Source: Archaeoglobus fulgidus DSM 4304
Lineage (GTDB): Archaea > Halobacteriota > Archaeoglobi > Archaeoglobales > Archaeoglobaceae
Direction of reading: 5' to 3'
Length of the DNA: 32,000 bases
Assembly: GCF_000008665.1 (NCBI RefSeq)
Contig: NC_000917.1
Coordinates: 1,500,001 to 1,532,000 of the forward strand
Made by a program: the position numbers and the translations under genes. Positions 7,887-15,966 of this stretch are shown piece after piece (the stretch's first letter is position 1; every line of letters begins with the position of its first letter). Under the pieces are notes generated by a model, which worked only from the letters and a program-made list of their open reading frames with translations, had not been told where the DNA came from and did no database searches.

Positions 7887-9062
7887 ATGAGGCTCGCCTT
7901 GGCAGTACTGATTTTATTGCTGAGTATCGCACCAGCCATGGCCCTCTGCAGCTACGAGGTTGTTGAGGAAAGGTACGCTGACCCCTTTACGGTGGATATC
8001 AGCAGCATGCCGTCCTTGAAAGATTTGCCGGTTGACGACCCAAGCGATGGGATAGACTGGGTGAAGGTGCCTCTTCCTAAGCCATGCGTTAACGGAATGG
8101 GCAAGGATACGTTCATTATGGTGAGGAAGGGCTCTTCGAACAACCTTTTGATTTTCTTTGAAGGTGGAGGGGCATGTGCGGACTACGAAACGTGCAAGCC
8201 AATGCTCTGCACAGACCTTAAGAGCTGCAAGCCTCTGCTGGGAATTGGAAGCGTTGTTGCGCTGGAGTCAAATTTCTGTTTCCTCAAGCTTTACTACAGA
8301 GGAGGCATTTTTGACGTCAAGAAGGCCGAGAACCCGTTCAGGGACTGGACGATTGTGTTCGTGCCCTACAACACCGGCGACCTGCACATGGGGAACAGGG
8401 TAGTGAGATACTTTGATGATGGGAAGGAGAAGACGATATACCATGTGGGGTACGTCAATGCGATAGTTGCGATGAGGTGGATAAAGGAGAACGGTAACTT
8501 TGACAGGATTGTAGTTGCAGGTTCGAGCGCAGGCGGCTACGCAACTCTGCTTCACGGCTATACCGCGTGGAGTATTTTTGGTAAGCCTGTGACGGTGATA
8601 AACGACGCGGGGCCGGGAATAAATCCGGATAGCGACAGCAAGTTCCAGGTGAATGAGATTATGGAGAGGTGGGGGAGCAAGCAGAACTTCCCGCCTGAAG
8701 CGCTGCAGTATTTTGAGGGAAAAGACCCAGCCTACGCGATAGAGTACTTCCTAGATAAGTGCAGCGATTGCGTTTATGGCTTCTTCGAAGACCAGAAGGA
8801 TTTGGTTATAGGGAGTGTTTTCAGCGCTTACTGGCCCTGGCAGTTTAAAACAAGGCTTTTGAAGGTAACCGATGAGCTGAGGGATTACAGCGACAGATAC
8901 TGCAGATTCCTGCCCTACGACTACCAGCACACAGTCCTTACCGGCGGGCTGCTTTATCCGCTGCAGAAGGACCGCTTTTACTGCGAGAAGGTTGGCGGAT
9001 ACAGGGTTTACGAGTGGGTAAAGGAGTTGCTGAGGGGCAACTGTGTGGATTTGGTTGAGTGA
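7887..9062 (+). CDS. Secreted alpha/beta hydrolase resembling the pectin acetylesterase/Notum family
   Basis: It has the signal-like N-terminus MRLALAVLILLLSIAPAMA, then LLIFFEGGGACADYETC, the nucleophile elbow AGSSAGG and VINDAGPG. Confidence 0.55.
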   Translation: MRLALAVLILLLSIAPAMALCSYEVVEERYADPFTVDISSMPSLKDLPVDDPSDGIDWVKVPLPKPCVNGMGKDTFIMVRKGSSNNLLIFFEGGGACADYETCKPMLCTDLKSCKPLLGIGSVVALESNFCFLKLYYRGGIFDVKKAENPFRDWTIVFVPYNTGDLHMGNRVVRYFDDGKEKTIYHVGYVNAIVAMRWIKENGNFDRIVVAGSSAGGYATLLHGYTAWSIFGKPVTVINDAGPGINPDSDSKFQVNEIMERWGSKQNFPPEALQYFEGKDPAYAIEYFLDKCSDCVYGFFEDQKDLVIGSVFSAYWPWQFKTRLLKVTDELRDYSDRYCRFLPYDYQHTVLTGGLLYPLQKDRFYCEKVGGYRVYEWVKELLRGNCVDLVE

Positions 9063-9069
9063 TTGTTTT

Positions 9070-9603
9070 TTATTTTTCTTTTATTCTCATTTGCAGAATC
9101 TTAATGCGCTTTAGAAGTTCTGAAATATAGCCCAGGGTTTCATTTAGATCAGGGAAGTAATCGCTCGGATGTGCACACTCATTTCTCTTACTTAAGAGTC
9201 CTTTAAGAGTTTTCATTTCACTTTTATTCAAAATTCCAACGTCCTTTGCAGCTTCAATTATCTGAAAGTCAGGGTACTCTCTAAAGTCTTCTTTTTTTGA
9301 AATTTTCCATTTTTCTTTTTTATTTTTAATTTGAGGTATGTGTAATGCCAATATACTGTGAAGGAAATCGATAAAACCTGCCCATGCAAGGACGTGTGCC
9401 GCTCTAAAAAGACCGTTCTCCACACACCTCAAAGCTTCTCTGAACAATTCATCTTGCTCGATAGATAATCCATCCAGCTCTTTATAACTTTCATCTAATC
9501 TAATTATACGTGATTTCCCTGCGCTTTCGTATGTGCTTAGGAGCTTGTGGACTTCTGATTCATATTTTAATAAATTCTTAACCATATTTTCTAAAATATC
9601 CAT
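9070..9603 (-). CDS. HEPN-domain protein (Rx4H motif), putative RNase/toxin component
   Basis: KRNECAH is encoded at 9169-9186 and preceded by helical segments (FRAAHVLAWAGFIDFLHSIL). I prefer the ATG at 9603, 1 nt past the upstream stop; the alternative ATG at 9663 would overlap the upstream gene by 59 nt. Confidence 0.6.
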   Translation of the reverse strand: MDILENMVKNLLKYESEVHKLLSTYESAGKSRIIRLDESYKELDGLSIEQDELFREALRCVENGLFRAAHVLAWAGFIDFLHSILALHIPQIKNKKEKWKISKKEDFREYPDFQIIEAAKDVGILNKSEMKTLKGLLSKRNECAHPSDYFPDLNETLGYISELLKRIKILQMRIKEK

Positions 9604-9604
9604 G

Positions 9605-10210
9605 TCACTCAGATAGCAAATTTCTTTTAAGTGAACGAAACAATTTATCATAAACTTCTTCATCAGTTGTGGCAGGTAACTGAAGTTGGATGTTTACATT
9701 AATCGTTAGGCCCTTCGGTGTTTGTTTTTCCATTAAAGTTGTTAAACCCTCTCTGGAGGGAACAACCTCATTATGGGGGTATTCCTCACTATTGGACTCG
9801 AAGTCAGCAAGTTCACATAGAGCTTTGAATGTCTGAATCATTTTTTCGATGGTATTCTCTGCTTTTCCTGTTTGAGAAGCAAAAAAGTTTCTCAAAGCTT
9901 CTTTGTCTTTCCTATAAGCATCAGGATAAGTTTCAAACAATTCCTTATAGGCGTTTTTTATTGCTTCAGCCATTACTTTTGGTGCAAGATCTTTATCTCT
10001 GTATCTTGCCCATAATTCGGTCGGAACACCGCTACGGTCTATAAAACCTAACTTTTTCAATAGTGGGATTATCGAAGGGTCATTGGAGGAGGTAAAACCT
10101 ATAGAATTTATCCATTTTTGTGTTACCTTGGACGGAAGTCCTGCTTCCTGAATTTTTTGAAAGAATGGTTTTATCTTTCCAGGAACGGTCGTATAAGGAA
10201 ACTCTGCCAT
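9605..10210 (-). CDS. Hypothetical protein, DUF5343-like (assignment from memory)
   Basis: 201 aa from the ATG at 10210. It begins [30 protein letters not shown]...[18 protein letters not shown] and ends in the amphipathic tail [30 protein letters not shown]-like element (TTTATATT on the minus strand) lies at 10244-10251. Confidence 0.5.
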
Positions 10211-10404
10211 ATTTGAACACCGAATATTGTTTACTAAAAACATAATATAAATTTTTTGGTAAAATGAAATATGCGCATTCCAGTAAATAAACAAACGCCT
10301 TACTTCATAAACTACACGCAGAACACAACCCCTCTGTCAACCTAAAAAGTGTAGCCATGTATTTATGTAGTAAACCTTAAATCCGAAACCACAACAATTC
10401 CAAT

Positions 10405-10644
10405 ATGGGATACACCACAGTCAGAATCTCCGTTGAGGACAAGGAGAGGCTGAAGAGGATCGCAAAGAGACTGGGAAAAAGCCTTTCGGAGACTCTAAGC
10501 TATGCTATAGATGTTGCAGAAAGAGAGTCGGACAGAGTTAGAGGGGATGTTGACAGCGTTCTCCAAACTCTGAAATTTGGGAAAGATATAGGCAAAACCA
10601 ACGCCGAAAAAGTTGACGAGTACCTCTATGGCGGCTCTAATTGA
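10405..10644 (+). CDS. Ribbon-helix-helix (CopG/VapB-like) antitoxin
   Basis: 79 aa. TVRISVEDKERLKRIAKRLGKSLSETLSYAI follows an RHH pattern, and the gene overlaps the downstream PIN gene. Confidence 0.7.
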   Translation: MGYTTVRISVEDKERLKRIAKRLGKSLSETLSYAIDVAERESDRVRGDVDSVLQTLKFGKDIGKTNAEKVDEYLYGGSN

Positions 10645-11098
10645 CACTGGTATATTTTTTGGCTTTTACAGCTTAAAGGACGTGCATCACATGGATTCTG
10701 TGGCGATTGTAGTTCATGCAGTTGAGGGAAAGTGGGGCAGGCTGTTTGTAACGAACCACATTCTCGATGAGACACTAACGCTTCTGAAATACAAAAAGCT
10801 CCCAGCAGACAAATTCTTAGAGGGTTTTGTTGAGTCTGGTGTGCTGAACATAATTTACACAGACGACGAAGTTGAAAGAAAGGCTCTGGAAGTTTTCAAA
10901 GCCAGAGTTTACGAAAAGGGGTTTAGCTACACCGACGCCATCTCTGAGGTTGTTGCTGAAGAGCTTAAATTGAAGCTTATCAGCTACGATAGCAGATTTA
11001 GCCTTCCCACAATCGGGCGTGATTACTGGAAAAGTCTTGATGAGTCAGAAAGGAAGAGGATAAGTGCTATTCTGAGAGAGAAAGGTATCGACGGATAG
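10628..11098 (+). CDS. PIN-domain ribonuclease (VapC-like toxin)
   Basis: It has ALIDTGIFF, ILDETL, SYTDAIS and ISYDSRF, the acidic residues expected of a PIN fold. The ATG at 10628 overlaps the antitoxin by 17 nt; a TTG at 10613 is an alternative start. Confidence 0.75.
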   Translation: MAALIDTGIFFGFYSLKDVHHMDSVAIVVHAVEGKWGRLFVTNHILDETLTLLKYKKLPADKFLEGFVESGVLNIIYTDDEVERKALEVFKARVYEKGFSYTDAISEVVAEELKLKLISYDSRFSLPTIGRDYWKSLDESERKRISAILREKGIDG

Positions 11099-13336: not shown

Positions 13337-13639
13337 ATGAGAAGAGAGGAAGCCCTGAGAAAACTAAGGGAGAGCAGGAAGGAGCTAAAAAAATTTGGAG
13401 TAAAAAGAATTGGTATTTTTGGTTCGATTGTAAGAAACGAGGCAAAAGAAGATAGTGATGTAGACATTTTCGTTGAGTTTGAGCCGGGAAAAGCAACCTT
13501 TAAAAACGTGGCTGGACTTGTTGACTTCCTTGAAAGTCTTTTTGGGAGAGAAGTGGACCTCCTGACACCTGCTGGAATCGAATCGATAAGGCTGAAACAT
13601 GTGAAAGAAGAAATAAGGAAGGAGATACAGTATGCCTAA
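13337..13639 (+). CDS. Minimal nucleotidyltransferase (MNT/MntA-type antitoxin)
   Basis: 100 aa with GIFGSIVRNEAKEDSDVDIFVEF, the GS...DxD pattern of the pol-beta nucleotidyltransferase fold. Confidence 0.8.
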   Translation: MRREEALRKLRESRKELKKFGVKRIGIFGSIVRNEAKEDSDVDIFVEFEPGKATFKNVAGLVDFLESLFGREVDLLTPAGIESIRLKHVKEEIRKEIQYA

Positions 13640-13700
13640 GCGTGGTGACAGAGAGTTTGTTCTCGACAGGGAATTGAAGGTTAAGGGTTATGTGAAATGA
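13632..13700 (+). pseudogene. Probable remnant of the HEPN (DUF86-type) partner of the MNT gene
   Basis: A 22-codon ORF (MPKRGDREFVLDRELKVKGYVK) starts in an ATGCCTAA overlap with the MNT stop, as intact MNT-HEPN pairs do. It ends in an ATGA overlap with the next gene, and no Rx4H region is present. Confidence 0.4.
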
Positions 13701-14344
13701 AGCTCGGCGTTGTAACGAGAAAGGGTAAAAGGCAGGACGACATAAGGATGTTCTCGCAGTTTTTCGAGGTTAAGGTTTACGAGATTCCGGAGGAGCTGCC
13801 GGAGCTCATAGACGAGCCTGCTGAAATTTTGAGGCTGCCGGATGACTTCGATGTGGACATGATCGTTTCATTTGCCGCTCACCCCGACATAAACCTTGAG
13901 CTAATAAAGCAGGCCGCAGAGAGAGGCATTGGCCTTGTCATCATTTCGGGAGGGGCGAAGGGAGGAGCTTACAAGCAGCTTAAGGAGGAGGGAGAGAAAA
14001 GAGGGGTCAGGGTCGTCTGGGAGGAAATCTGCTGCGCCACACCCAAAGTTGAGGACGAGAGAACGAGGGAATTTTTCGAGCACTTCGGCGCTCCTGAGGT
14101 TGAGGTGGAGGTTGAAAACGGAAAGGTGAAGGATGTGAGAGTGAAAAGGTCGGCCTTCTGTGGCGCCACTTACTACGTAGCAGAGAAAATAAAGGGGCTG
14201 AGCGTGGAGGAGGCTCCTACAAAGGCGGGCTACTACACCCAGATTTACCCCTGTCTGGCTCCGAGAGGTCACGAGGGCGGGATTCACAAGGCGGCGAGGG
14301 CCCACAAAAGAGCAGTGGAGAAGGCCATTGAGAAGTCTAAGTAA
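13697..14344 (+). CDS. Uncharacterised Cys-containing archaeal protein (possibly DUF166-type; low-confidence recollection)
   Basis: 215 aa with coding-like composition. Cysteines occur at EEICCATP, SAFCGATYY and IYPCLAP. I recognise no catalytic motif. Confidence 0.45.
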   Translation: MKLGVVTRKGKRQDDIRMFSQFFEVKVYEIPEELPELIDEPAEILRLPDDFDVDMIVSFAAHPDINLELIKQAAERGIGLVIISGGAKGGAYKQLKEEGEKRGVRVVWEEICCATPKVEDERTREFFEHFGAPEVEVEVENGKVKDVRVKRSAFCGATYYVAEKIKGLSVEEAPTKAGYYTQIYPCLAPRGHEGGIHKAARAHKRAVEKAIEKSK

Positions 14345-15344: not shown

Positions 15345-15566
15345 ATGAAGAACATAATGGTGAGGGATGAAGTTTACGAAAAATTGCAGAAAATGAAGAA
15401 GGGCAGGGAATCCTTTTCAGATGTCATACTCAGGCTTATCGAAGGGAGAAAGAAGAGAGGAATTGAGATTCTTGAAAGGTATGCAGGCTCTCTCTCAGAC
15501 AGTGAACTGGAGAAGATTGTAATGGAGGAAAGGAGAAAATTCAGGGTGAGAAGCTTTGATTCTTGA
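15345..15566 (+). CDS. vapB: VapB-type antitoxin (small archaeal antitoxin family)
   Basis: 73 aa. IMVRDEVYEKLQKMKKGRESFSDVILRLIE is typical of archaeal antitoxins paired with PIN genes. It overlaps the PIN gene by 11 nt. Confidence 0.65.
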   Translation: MKNIMVRDEVYEKLQKMKKGRESFSDVILRLIEGRKKRGIEILERYAGSLSDSELEKIVMEERRKFRVRSFDS

Positions 15567-15966
15567 CACCTCTGTAATAATCCGCATTTTCAGGGACAGA
15601 AATTTTTTCGAAGTGCTTAAGGAGAGAATAGACGACGATGTGAAGATAACTTCCGTAACAGCCTACGAACTGCAGAGAGGGGCTGTTTACATCATGCTAA
15701 AGCATGGAAGAGATTATGAATTTAAACTCATTAGAGATTTTCTTGAAGAGGTGGAAATCCTGTCATTCACCCCAAAGGACTCCGAGATTTCGGCAATGAT
15801 ATGGGCTAAGCTGAGGGAAAAAGGGTATGAGCTAAATGATGCGGACATAATGATTTCAGCAGTGTCTATAAGAGAGAACGAGAAGCTTGTAACTCTCGAC
15901 AGAGATTTTGAATACATAAGCAGAGTTTCGGAGCTTGATGTTGACATCTTAGAGGAGGAATTATGA
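15556..15966 (+). CDS. vapC: PIN-domain ribonuclease VapC
   Basis: 136 aa with ILDTSVII, ELQRG, DADIMISAVS and VTLDRDF. It uses a TTG start. Confidence 0.8.
   Translation: MILDTSVIIRIFRDRNFFEVLKERIDDDVKITSVTAYELQRGAVYIMLKHGRDYEFKLIRDFLEEVEILSFTPKDSEISAMIWAKLREKGYELNDADIMISAVSIRENEKLVTLDRDFEYISRVSELDVDILEEEL

What the first reader, a model, noticed from the sequence alone, without database searches (positions are those of the whole stretch)
9070..10251. Two-gene cassette pairing a DUF5343-like protein with an Rx4H HEPN protein: candidate uncharacterised toxin/defence module
On the minus strand, a 201-aa protein ([17 protein letters not shown]...[18 protein letters not shown]...) ends with its stop at 9605-9607. 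The next ATG lies at 9601-9603, a 1-nt spacer that implies co-translation. The second protein (177 aa) carries KRNECAH at 9169-9186, which is the R-x4-H signature of HEPN ribonucleases, set in a helical context. HEPN proteins usually work as toxins or effectors in TA, abortive-infection and CRISPR-ancillary systems, each with a dedicated partner. Here the partner is none of the classic ones (MNT, RHH, AbrB) but a domain of unknown function. The pair has its own TATA-like element (10244-10251, minus strand) and sits among other TA modules. I do not recognise this pairing as a named system.
Basis: partly seen in the sequence, partly recalled or inferred. Interest (0 to 1): 0.8.

Follow-up and report, generated by a model that had tools for sequence, protein, structure and literature searches.

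The report
DUF5343–HEPN two-gene toxin-like cassette
A small, horizontally mobile two-gene operon of Archaeoglobus fulgidus pairs a protein of unknown function (DUF5343) with a predicted HEPN RNase (AF_1680); the pair stays together in archaea and many bacterial phyla and is most likely an uncharacterised toxin–antitoxin or abortive-infection module.

Summary
On the minus strand, gene A (10210–9605, 201 aa) matches Pfam DUF5343 (E 2.7e-57). Gene B (9603–9070, 177 aa) is AF_1680 and follows after a 1-nt spacer.

B is predicted to be all-helical. Its best PDB fold matches are almost all HEPN proteins, though weakly. R-N-E-C-A-H-P is its most conserved block (≥97% in 74 orthologs) and lies where HEPN catalytic motifs lie.

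Synteny is complete. All 77 assessable B loci, from Archaea and more than 12 bacterial phyla, have a DUF5343 gene directly upstream. All 6 loci found through A have an AF_1680 gene directly downstream. Junctions are −26 to +14 nt. No third gene is conserved, and the module is AT-rich relative to its flanks in 61 of 66 loci.

A has a winged-helix-like domain with a helical bundle, a disordered linker and a conserved β-strand/helix tail.

Best reading: a HEPN RNase effector restrained by a new kind of protein partner (TA/Abi). Nothing is tested experimentally. The pair is not wholly uncatalogued: A matches PADLOC's untested candidate PDC-M34A, and B defines Pfam PF27235 'AF_1680'.

It is a new variant of a known kind, of moderate interest.

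The parts
10244..10251 (-). TATA-like element TTTATATT, preceded by an A-rich BRE-like stretch
   Evidence: Read directly. It lies 34–41 nt upstream of the ATG of gene A. Function is inferred, not tested.
10229..10235 (-). AGTAAAC heptamer between the TATA-like element and the ATG of gene A. An inverted copy lies at 10369–10375 before the divergent RHH/PIN operon. It may be a shared promoter or operator element.
   Evidence: 8 copies in the window against 2.3 expected, two of them in this 195-nt intergenic region. Its role is unexplained.
9605..10210 (-). Gene A: DUF5343 protein, 201 aa plus stop. Proposed partner or regulator (antitoxin-like).
   Evidence: Pfam PF17278 E 2.7e-57 and PADLOC PDC-M34A E 1.8e-56. 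Found directly upstream of B in 77 of 77 assessable loci.
9788..10198 (-). DUF5343 domain (aa 5–141). The model shows a winged-helix-like unit (α10-22, α31-36, α44-54, short β pair 57/63) followed by a helical bundle. It is basic (pI 8.9).
   Evidence: Model pLDDT is mostly above 90; pI. Only weak hints link it to the WH+helical (HA2) region of DEAH helicases and to FadR/MarR wHTH proteins. No significant fold match.
9722..9784 (-). Disordered, acidic linker (aa 143–163) that varies in length between orthologs
   Evidence: pLDDT below 50. These alignment columns are not conserved.
9608..9715 (-). Conserved C-terminal tail (aa 166–201): a β-strand-like stretch [11 protein letters not shown] followed by an amphipathic helix. 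Proposed HEPN-docking or oligomerisation element.
   Evidence: N173, L176 and F191 are at least 97% conserved, and N171, P179 and Y187 are nearly invariant. The helix 184–199 is predicted. The role is inferred.
9601..9607 (-). TGAcATG junction: stop of A, one base, start of B (translational coupling)
   Evidence: Across 76 loci the junction is −26 to +14 nt, and 25 have a 4-nt ATGA/GTGA overlap.
9070..9603 (-). Gene B: AF_1680, 177 aa plus stop. Predicted HEPN-fold RNase (effector or toxin).
   Evidence: 100% identical to AF_1680 of A. fulgidus DSM 4304. Precomputed Pfam family PF27235 'AF_1680'. Model pLDDT 89 with HEPN top fold hits.
9076..9462 (-). Predicted HEPN core (aa 48–176): helices 48-62, 66-86, a helical insert at 89-121, then helices 127-144 and 153-176
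   Evidence: Secondary structure of the model. The layout matches the HEPN description in PMC3710099. hhalign prob 97.4% for residues 50–154 against a second AF_1680 subfamily.
9166..9186 (-). R140-N-E-C-A-H145-P146: candidate catalytic Rx4H motif
   Evidence: All seven positions are at least 97% identical in 74 orthologs. The motif lies at the end of helix 127–144 and the start of the following loop.

Best explanation
This is an autonomous, horizontally mobile two-gene operon of the toxin–antitoxin / abortive-infection kind.

Gene B (AF_1680) encodes a small HEPN-fold, metal-independent RNase. Its active site is built from R140, N141 and H145, probably in a dimer as in other HEPN enzymes.

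Gene A (DUF5343) is made first, and B is translated by coupling from the same transcript. A keeps B inactive by direct protein–protein binding. The most likely contact is A's conserved C-terminal β-strand/helix tail, which is tethered through a protease-accessible disordered linker. A's basic winged-helix-like N-terminal domain binds nucleic acid, either its own promoter (autoregulation) or a foreign nucleic acid (sensing). Loss, degradation or re-targeting of A releases the RNase, and RNA cleavage arrests growth.

Shown: the two genes exist, their family assignments, strict co-occurrence, coupling, mobility, the invariant motif and the predicted fold.

Inferred: RNase activity, toxicity, that A is the inhibitor, which part of A binds B, and what the winged-helix domain binds.
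For: - **Family and fold of A:** DUF5343, E 2.7e-57.
- **Family and fold of B:** model pLDDT 89.3, all-helical. Of the best 29 Foldseek PDB hits, almost all are HEPN proteins, with probability up to 0.99 and target-normalised TM up to 0.63.
- **Motif:** RNECAHP is at least 97% conserved in 74 orthologs and is the most conserved block. It lies at the end of core helix 3, with N after R and an insert between helices 2 and 3, as HEPN is defined.
- **Link to a HEPN clade:** a member of the second PF27235 subfamily is named 'DUF4145 domain-containing' by UniRef. DUF4145 is listed as a HEPN family in PMC3710099.
- **Operon:** 1-nt spacer here. Junctions are −26 to +14 nt in 76 loci, 25 of them with a 4-nt overlap.
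- **Synteny:** 77 of 77 assessable loci found through B, and 6 of 6 found through A. Pairwise identities of A and B correlate at r = 0.77.
- **Two genes only:** no third conserved gene and no Rfam RNA.
- **Mobility:** hosts span six archaeal lineages and more than 12 bacterial phyla at 45–55% identity. Flanking genes are unrelated between loci. Module GC is 36% against 49% in the window, and it is lower than the flanks in 61 of 66 loci.
- **Context:** the module lies next to VapBC-like, MNT and VapB/PIN genes here and next to HicB and MNT/HepT in L085. A few loci have BREX or type IIG R-M neighbours.
- **PADLOC:** A matches candidate PDC-M34A at full length.
- **Architecture of A:** folded basic domain, disordered linker and conserved tail.
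- **Parallel case:** a second AF_1680 subfamily (about 248 aa; Burkholderiales, cyanobacteria, Acidobacteriota) also sits downstream of an overlapping gene for a roughly 200-aa partner. That partner is unrelated in sequence to A. By eye it has the same parts in reverse order: β-strand/helix, linker, winged-helix-like domain.
- **Precedent:** in the type IX retron a winged-helix protein wraps and silences a HEPN nuclease.
Against: - There is no experimental evidence of toxicity, RNase activity or A–B binding.
- Sequence-profile support for HEPN is below threshold (HEPN_RiboL-PSP E 0.015–0.0016 in 2 of 22 members). hhalign against one HepT gave nothing. Foldseek E-values are only 0.08–1.
- A has no significant fold match in PDB or BFVD, so 'winged helix' rests on my reading of the model plus very weak hits.
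- At 201 aa, A is larger than B. Neither A (median pI 8.7) nor B (7.0) shows the usual acidic antitoxin / basic toxin pattern.
- Most immediate neighbours are housekeeping genes. Only a handful of the 132 scanned match defence models.
- Copies with a damaged A and an apparently intact B exist: a frameshift in L063, and a 32-aa in-frame deletion in A. fulgidus DSM 8774. This is unexpected if A is indispensable, although the C-terminal tail is kept in both cases and errors in assembled genomes cannot be excluded.
- B matches no PADLOC model.
Confidence: 0.55

Rival explanations
1. Sensor–effector abortive-infection system. A is not a constitutive inhibitor but a sensor or activator. Its winged-helix/helical domain recognises a viral nucleic acid or protein and then switches on the HEPN RNase. 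The module would be an antiviral defence system (PADLOC PDC-M34-like) rather than an addiction module.
For: A matches PADLOC candidate PDC-M34A. That candidate was derived from cassettes embedded in BREX, DISARM or type I R-M loci. Some loci have PglX, BrxH or type IIG R-M neighbours. The related 248-aa subfamily sits beside STAND NTPases. The module is absent from viral contigs and phage genomes, as expected for a host-side system. A is large and well folded, more like a sensor than a minimal antitoxin.
Against: The defence association of the immediate neighbours is weak. PDC-M34 has not been tested. B matches no PADLOC model, so membership of that candidate is unconfirmed. Tight translational coupling with the partner gene first is the classic antitoxin-then-toxin layout. 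This rival overlaps the best explanation, because many TA modules also act as Abi systems.
Confidence: 0.22
2. Non-toxic RNA-metabolism pair. A is an RNA-binding adaptor (HA2-like winged helix plus helical bundle) that directs a HEPN RNase to particular cellular RNAs for processing or turnover. No toxin/antitoxin relationship is involved.
For: Some HEPN domains act in RNA processing (PMC3710099). There are weak HA2 / DEAH-helicase WH hits for A. Many neighbours are housekeeping genes, including tRNA synthetases and RNA-modification enzymes.
Against: The distribution is patchy, and the module occurs in different contexts even among Archaeoglobi. It is consistently AT-rich relative to its hosts. 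Degraded copies exist. The module sits among TA genes. These are marks of an accessory, selfish or defensive element, not of a core RNA-processing factor.
Confidence: 0.1
3. B is not an active nuclease. The R-x4-H string is structural or used only for binding, and the pair has some unrelated function, for example as a DNA-binding regulatory complex.
For: No Pfam HEPN model reaches its threshold. The Foldseek E-values are not significant on their own. Four-helix bundles are common folds.
Against: RNECAHP is the most conserved block of the protein across Archaea and Bacteria. It has the canonical polar residue after R and the canonical position in the fold. The same motif (RRNMAAHPS) is kept in the distant 248-aa subfamily. 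Of the best 29 fold hits, almost all are HEPN proteins.
Confidence: 0.06

Closest known systems
HepT–MntA (HEPN/MNT) toxin–antitoxin systems (e.g. SO_3166/SO_3165; PDB 5yep, 7bxo, 7ae8)
   Same: A small single-domain HEPN protein with Rx4H is encoded as the downstream gene of a tightly coupled two-gene operon. The systems are very mobile and common in archaea and thermophiles. These proteins are among the best structural matches of the B model.
   Different: The partner here is DUF5343, not a minimal nucleotidyltransferase, so neutralisation by AMPylation is not expected. B has no detectable sequence similarity to a HepT. B also has a 47-residue N-terminal extension and a helical insert.
PADLOC phage-defence candidate PDC-M34 (Payne et al., bioRxiv 10.1101/2024.01.29.577857)
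   Same: Protein A matches the PDC-M34A model over its full length, E 1.8e-56. PDC-M34 is a two-gene cassette, FAM_01148>>FAM_01657, with 97 RefSeq instances.
   Different: PDC-M34 is an untested candidate with no described mechanism. B and 21 orthologs match no PADLOC model. I therefore could not confirm that the second PDC-M34 gene is the AF_1680 family.
Type IX retron HEPN–WH effector pair (Retron-Kva2, bioRxiv 10.64898/2026.07.14.738597)
   Same: A HEPN nuclease is kept silent by a separate protein with a winged-helix domain that wraps around it and covers the active site. Release causes RNA cleavage and abortive infection.
   Different: The retron system needs a reverse transcriptase and msDNA. 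Its HEPN lacks the canonical Rx4-6H motif, and its WH protein has a different domain order. Here there is no RT, no conserved third gene and no Rfam RNA.
RnlA–RnlB / LsoA–LsoB
   Same: A HEPN RNase toxin is neutralised by direct binding of a dedicated protein antitoxin, with an anti-phage role (established knowledge; PMC8266594 listed).
   Different: RnlA is a large multi-domain toxin, the gene order is toxin then antitoxin, and there is no sequence relationship to A or B.
DUF4145-like HEPN clade (PF13643; Anantharaman et al. 2013)
   Same: Probably the nearest described HEPN clade. A PF27235 member (P0411) is named 'DUF4145 domain-containing' by UniRef, and one ortholog gives a weak DUF4145 hit (E 0.14).
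   Different: The hits are far below threshold. DUF4145 proteins are described mainly as fusions to, or operon partners of, R-M components, not as partners of DUF5343.
AbiEi/AbiEii
   Same: The upstream gene encodes a fairly large partner with an N-terminal winged helix for autoregulation and a C-terminal part that neutralises the toxin. The system acts as both TA and Abi (established knowledge, not tested here).
   Different: The toxin is a nucleotidyltransferase, not a HEPN protein, and there is no sequence relationship.

Membership tests
Pfam DUF5343 (PF17278), protein A | Match to the family HMM above the gathering score (27 bits) over the whole domain | tested here: met
   193.4 bits, E 2.7e-57. 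Residues 5–141 align to profile positions 1–139 of 140. All 22 aligned orthologs match.
Pfam AF_1680 (PF27235), protein B | Membership of the family as precomputed for the protein collection | tested here: met
   P0001 is 100% identical to B. It is AF_1680 of A. fulgidus DSM 4304 and carries PF27235. The family name appears. The model is absent from the local Pfam copy, so I could not score it myself.
HEPN superfamily, protein B | [quoted passage not shown] | tested here: met
   The model (pLDDT 89.3) has helices 48-62, 66-86, an insert at 89-121, then 127-144 and 153-176. Of the best 29 Foldseek PDB hits, almost all are HEPN proteins, with TM normalised to the target of 0.45–0.63 and probability up to 0.99, but E is only 0.08–1. 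This rests on a predicted structure, not a solved one.
HEPN superfamily, protein B | [quoted passage not shown] | tested here: met
   R140-N141-E-C-A-H145 lies at the end of helix 127–144. It is at least 97% conserved in 74 orthologs and is kept as RRNMAAHPS in the distant subfamily.
HEPN superfamily, protein B | A second conserved acidic residue upstream, typically within Ex3[KR] in helix 2 | tested here: inconclusive
   Invariant D51-x3-R55, and E62 with R67, lie upstream. I could not establish from coordinates whether they are equivalent to the canonical Ex3[KR].
HEPN superfamily, protein B | Significant sequence-profile match to a curated HEPN family | tested here: not met
   HEPN_RiboL-PSP scores 15.6 bits against a cutoff of 28.4; the best E is 0.0016, in 2 of 22 members. 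Hypoth_Ymh and DUF4145 score only E of about 0.1. hhalign against one HepT gave probability 0.2%. No HHpred-type search against HEPN profiles was available.
HEPN superfamily, protein B | Metal-independent RNase activity that depends on R and H, and dimerisation | not testable with these tools
   This needs biochemistry, or at least multimer modelling. Only single-chain prediction was available.
PADLOC candidate system PDC-M34 | First gene matches the PDC-M34A model | tested here: met
   PDLC04589, E 1.8e-56, residues 3–198 aligned to 4–207 of 208. PDLC04588, E 1e-24.
PADLOC candidate system PDC-M34 | Adjacent second gene matches the PDC-M34B model | tested here: inconclusive
   Neither B nor 21 orthologs match any PDC-M34 model at E up to 1. 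The family tables of the source paper are truncated in the held copy. The second gene of PDC-M34 may be a different family, or its model may be missing from the library used.
Type II toxin–antitoxin module (functional class) | Two small adjacent co-transcribed genes with a conserved pairing and mobile, patchy distribution | tested here: met
Type II toxin–antitoxin module (functional class) | The toxin arrests growth, the antitoxin binds and neutralises it, the antitoxin is labile, and the operon is autoregulated | not testable with these tools
   Only indirect hints exist: the disordered linker in A and repeated AGTAAAC heptamers at the promoter.
Retron type IX | Reverse transcriptase and msr/msd non-coding RNA next to the HEPN and WH genes | tested here: not met
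   No conserved third gene in 80 loci. No Rfam hit in 8800–10700.

The most novel reading that the evidence does not exclude
DUF5343 proteins and the unrelated roughly 200-aa partners of the second AF_1680 subfamily may represent one undescribed class of HEPN regulators. Each would be a nucleic-acid-binding winged-helix module tethered by a flexible linker to a short β-strand/helix docking element, and the two families carry these parts in opposite order. Such a regulator would keep a DUF4145-like HEPN RNase silent until it meets foreign nucleic acid. That would define a new two-gene abortive-infection system shared by Archaea and more than a dozen bacterial phyla.
Probability: 0.25. Interest if true: 0.7.

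Novelty: new variant of a known kind. Interest (0 to 1): 0.5.

Why it matters
HEPN RNases are among the most common effectors of prokaryotic conflict systems. The ways they are restrained are known for only a few partners: MNT AMPylation, RnlB binding, CARF ligands and the retron WH/msDNA cage.

This pair offers a compact (201 + 177 aa), very widespread and strictly co-inherited HEPN module whose partner has no assigned fold or function. Characterising it would give a function to two Pfam families of unknown function, DUF5343 and AF_1680. It would test an untested PADLOC candidate. It could also reveal another way of gating a HEPN nuclease, one that works in archaea as well as bacteria.

If it turns out to be a plain type II TA pair, the gain is an annotation, not a new principle.

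Tried and rejected
**Searches that found nothing**
- NCBIfam found nothing for either protein.
- Profile searches of A and B against PDB sequences found nothing meaningful. Nor did the C-terminal tail of A searched alone.
- Foldseek of the A model against PDB and BFVD gave no significant match.
- Neither A nor B was found in IMG/VR viral contigs. B was not found in GenBank phages, and A was not found in plasmids.
- Full-text searches for DUF5343, PDC-M34, PF27235 and AF1680/AF1681 found nothing relevant.
- Rfam gave no hit in 8800–10700.

**Ideas tested and dropped**
- A conserved third gene or a retron-like RT: none in 80 loci.
- N-terminal fusions of A among longer representatives: the extensions are not conserved and look like over-called starts.
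- hhalign of the B profile against a HepT from L085 was negative.
- hhalign of the A profile against the Ralstonia partner, and against the N-terminus of the 248-aa HEPN, was negative. The architectural similarity of the partners is therefore by eye only.
- Two look-alike neighbour proteins in L068 and L078 have no Pfam or PADLOC hit and are not detected by the A profile.

**Tools or data that were unavailable or limited**
- The representative search with the A profile counted 3,202 relatives but listed only close orthologs. The partners of distant DUF5343 relatives remain unknown.
- The supplementary tables of the PDC paper are truncated, so the families behind PDC-M34 could not be read.
Full report
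**1. The observation**

The window comes from Archaeoglobus fulgidus DSM 4304: protein B is 100% identical to AF_1680.

On the minus strand, an ATG at 10210 opens a 201-aa ORF that ends with TGA at 9607–9605. After one base, an ATG at 9603 opens a 177-aa ORF that ends at 9070. RNECAH is encoded at 9186–9169. TTTATATT lies at 10251–10244, 34–41 nt upstream of the first ATG.

The public annotation and the mechanical ORF list start B 20 codons earlier, at ATG 9663.

**2. What the two proteins are**

*Protein A*
- A is a full-length member of Pfam DUF5343 (E 2.7e-57).
- It matches PADLOC's PDC-M34A model end to end (E 1.8e-56).
- Its AlphaFold model has mean pLDDT 85. It shows a well-defined N-terminal domain (aa 1–140), a disordered acidic linker (143–163) and a C-terminal helix (184–199).
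- The N-terminal domain begins with a helix, helix, helix, β-pair arrangement that I read as a winged helix, followed by a helical bundle. This domain is basic, with pI 8.9.
- The last 35 residues (…[23 protein letters not shown]) are as conserved as the domain itself.
- No significant structural neighbour was found in PDB or BFVD.
- The only recurring hints are very weak. They are Foldseek hits to the winged-helix/helical region of DEAH-box helicases and to FadR/MarR regulators, and one ortholog hitting Pfam HA2_N at E 0.03. I treat 'nucleic-acid-binding winged helix' as a lead, not a result.

*Protein B*
- B has only sub-threshold Pfam matches: HEPN_RiboL-PSP at E 0.015, and weak Hypoth_Ymh and DUF4145 hits in single orthologs.
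- Its model (pLDDT 89.3, pTM 0.75) is all-helical.
- Of the best 29 Foldseek matches in the PDB, almost all are HEPN proteins. They include SSO P95883, the HEPN/MNT toxins 7ae8/7ae9, HepT 7bxo/6m6w, SO_3166 5yep, AF_0298 2hsb, T. thermophilus HEPN proteins and Csm6. Probabilities reach 0.99 and target-normalised TM 0.63, but E-values are only 0.08–1.
- Anantharaman et al. (PMC3710099) define HEPN by four features. These are a four-helix bundle of two hairpins, an insert between helices 2 and 3, an Rx4-6H motif at the end of helix 3 running into the loop, and a polar residue after R.
- In B, helices 48–62 and 66–86 are followed by a helical insert (89–121), helix 127–144 and helix 153–176. R140-N-E-C-A-H145 sits exactly at the end of helix 127–144.
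- All seven residues of RNECAHP are at least 97% identical in 74 orthologs from Archaea and Bacteria. This is the most conserved block of the protein.
- Candidate equivalents of the upstream acidic/basic pair exist (D51-x3-R55; E62 with R67), but I could not verify their positions in the fold.
- A profile comparison with a single HepT sequence was negative. That is unsurprising between HEPN families, but it means the assignment rests on predicted fold plus motif.
- B's family is now Pfam PF27235, which is named 'AF_1680' after this very protein.

**3. Is the pairing real?**

Yes.
- A scan of one genome per species (GTDB) with the B profile gave 103 confirmed hits, of which 80 loci were fetched.
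- In 77 of them, tblastn finds an A homologue immediately upstream on the same strand. In the other three, B lies within about 220 nt of the contig end, so there is no room to see A.
- Conversely, six A orthologs taken from the A search all have a PF27235 gene directly downstream.
- The A-stop to B-start distance is −26 to +14 nt in 76 loci. Twenty-five of them have an ATGA/GTGA 4-nt overlap.
- Pairwise identities of A and of B across loci correlate at r = 0.77.
- Clustering all ORFs of the 80 loci shows no third recurrent gene. The next most frequent family occurs in 4 loci.
- Rfam finds no RNA element.

**4. What kind of element is it?**

*Host range.* The hosts span Archaeoglobi, Methanomassiliicoccales, Methanoperedens, Methanoregula, Thermoplasmatales and DPANN. 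Among Bacteria they include Chloroflexota, Acidobacteriota, Actinomycetota, Planctomycetota, Pseudomonadota, Bacillota, Thermodesulfobacteriota, Gemmatimonadota, Verrucomicrobiota, Lentisphaerota, Ignavibacteriota, Nitrospinota and Patescibacteria. Identity to the A. fulgidus protein is still 45–55%.

*Mobility.* Flanking genes differ from locus to locus, even within Archaeoglobi. The module has 36% GC against 49% for the rest of the window. It is more AT-rich than its flanks in 61 of 66 loci, with a median difference of −8 points. These features point to an autonomous, horizontally transferred accessory module.

*Viruses and plasmids.* The module was not found on viral contigs or in phage genomes, and A was not found on plasmids.

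*Neighbours.* The immediate neighbours are mostly housekeeping genes. A handful match PglX, BrxH, type IIG R-M or SNF2/DrmD-like models. In the window the module is flanked by an RHH+PIN pair, with an MNT (PDC-S09) and a VapB+PIN pair nearby. In L085 it sits between HicB and MNT/HepT.

*Decayed copies.* B is truncated in L083 and A is frameshifted in L063. Both genes are damaged in L001. A has a 32-aa in-frame deletion in A. fulgidus DSM 8774.

**5. A wider family**

- B residues 55–166 match the phage family phrog_27609 (function unknown, E 5e-9).
- tblastn against plasmids found a distant relative on Ralstonia solanacearum megaplasmids.
- That relative is a 248-aa protein whose C-terminal half aligns with B residues 50–154. 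hhalign gives probability 97.4% and E 1e-11, and the motif RRNMAAHPS is included.
- This 248-aa type also carries PF27235. It occurs in Burkholderiales, cyanobacteria and Acidobacteriota. One member is named 'DUF4145 domain-containing' by UniRef, and DUF4145 is a HEPN family in PMC3710099.
- In the four loci examined it is again the downstream gene. In three loci it overlaps a gene for a partner of 202–217 aa. In the cyanobacterial locus it follows a 406-aa partner after a 53-nt gap. None of the partners looked up has a Pfam hit.
- These partners are homologous to each other but not detectably to A.
- By eye they carry the same parts as A in reverse order: an N-terminal β-strand plus helix (KLRVVEFELEGSD--LQ-SL--IAAAL), an acidic/proline linker and a winged-helix-like C-terminal domain.
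- This convergence is the main reason I propose that the β-strand/helix element is the part that engages the HEPN protein. It is an inference only.

**6. Mechanism**

The best-supported reading is a TA/Abi-type module.
- B is a HEPN RNase with R140, N141 and H145 as catalytic residues.
- A is made first and in stoichiometric coupling, and it restrains B by direct binding.
- Loss or diversion of A frees the RNase.

Known HEPN restraint mechanisms give precedents for protein partners. They are MNT AMPylation, RnlB binding, and the winged-helix protein that wraps the HEPN active site in the type IX retron. DUF5343 is none of these.

The main alternative differs in A's role: sensor or activator in a defence system rather than constitutive inhibitor. 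It is not exclusive with the best reading. A housekeeping RNA-processing role, or an inactive B, is much less likely given the mobility, the AT-richness and the invariant motif.

**7. Known or new?**

Both families are catalogued but uncharacterised. They are DUF5343, PF27235 'AF_1680', and PADLOC PDC-M34A.
- PDC-M34 is one of 145 untested 'guilt-by-embedding' candidates. It is a two-gene cassette with 97 RefSeq instances.
- B matches no PADLOC model, so I could not confirm that this pair is PDC-M34 in full.
- No paper in the searchable library mentions either family.

I therefore rate it a new variant of a known kind: a HEPN two-gene conflict module with a new partner. Interest is moderate. 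However, the pair is unusually clean, widespread and experimentally tractable.

Noticed in passing
window 9604-9663 (-): The public annotation of AF_1680 (197 aa, P0001) starts at ATG 9663 and overlaps the 3' end of gene A by about 59 nt. Ortholog N-termini and junction positions indicate that the real start is ATG 9603 (177 aa).
   Followed up: yes
window 10229-10235 (-) and 10369-10375 (+): Two inverted copies of AGTAAAC lie in the 195-nt divergent intergenic region. Each lies just downstream of a TATA-like TAT(T)TATG, one before gene A and one before the RHH/PIN operon. The window holds 8 copies against 2.3 expected. They could be a shared promoter or operator feature of the two TA-like operons.
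   Followed up: partly
window 10405-11098 (+): A divergently transcribed RHH (PF01402) plus PIN (PF01850) pair lies here, a VapBC-like TA module. Its GC is about 44%, also below the local average.
   Followed up: partly
window 13337-14344 (+): A minimal nucleotidyltransferase (PF01909; PADLOC PDC-S09, E 1.9e-30) is followed by a DUF166 protein, not by a HEPN gene. It appears to be an MNT without its usual HepT partner.
   Followed up: partly
window 15345-15966 (+): A VapB-type antitoxin (PF02697) plus PIN pair lies here, a third TA-like module within 7 kb.
   Followed up: no
P0122 (A. fulgidus DSM 8774) and P0002: The A ortholog of strain DSM 8774 has a clean 32-aa in-frame deletion (residues 84–115) in the helical part of DUF5343 but keeps the winged-helix part and the tail. 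A metagenomic B variant (P0002) has a 17-aa in-frame deletion (residues 37–53).
   Followed up: partly
L083:4605-4904; L063:4370-4989; L001:4348-5498: Degraded copies exist. B is called as only 99 aa beside an intact A (L083). A is split by a frameshift beside an intact B (L063). Both genes are disrupted in an Archaeoglobi assembled genome (L001). Assembly errors cannot be excluded.
   Followed up: partly
L088:3000-4396 (Ralstonia solanacearum Po82 megaplasmid NC_017575.1, unannotated there); also L089, L090, L091: This is a second PF27235 subfamily, about 248 aa, with an N-terminal extra domain and an AF_1680-like HEPN carrying RRNMAAHPS. It is always preceded by a partner gene with no Pfam hit. 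The partner is about 200 aa and overlaps the HEPN gene in three loci; it is 406 aa with a 53-nt gap in the cyanobacterial locus. The partner looks like A with its parts in reverse order (β-strand/helix, linker, winged-helix-like domain).
   Followed up: partly
L088:4816-7449 (-) and L089:1-2846 (+): Large STAND NTPases lie beside the 248-aa subfamily. The Ralstonia one has TPRs and an N-terminal LRNKTRGHG (R-x5-H, HEPN-like). The Achromobacter one matches nSTAND_NTPase5.
   Followed up: no
L068:3511-4431 (-) and L078:3426-4364 (+): Proteins of about 310 aa lie directly upstream of the DUF5343 gene in two unrelated loci. They have no Pfam or PADLOC hit. By eye they have the same layout as A: winged-helix-like N-terminus, helical region, low-complexity linker, and a C-terminal β-strand plus helix.
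   Followed up: partly
B residues 55-166: This region matches the phage protein family phrog_27609 (function unknown, 418-aa profile, positions 34–152) at E 5e-9, although tblastn found no relative in the GenBank phage collection.
   Followed up: partly
PADLOC library versus protein B: A matches two models that are both labelled PDC-M34A (208 and 260 positions). B and 21 orthologs match no PDC-M34 model at all, although A-type orthologs are always followed by B. Either PDC-M34B is a different family, or its model is missing from the library used.
   Followed up: partly
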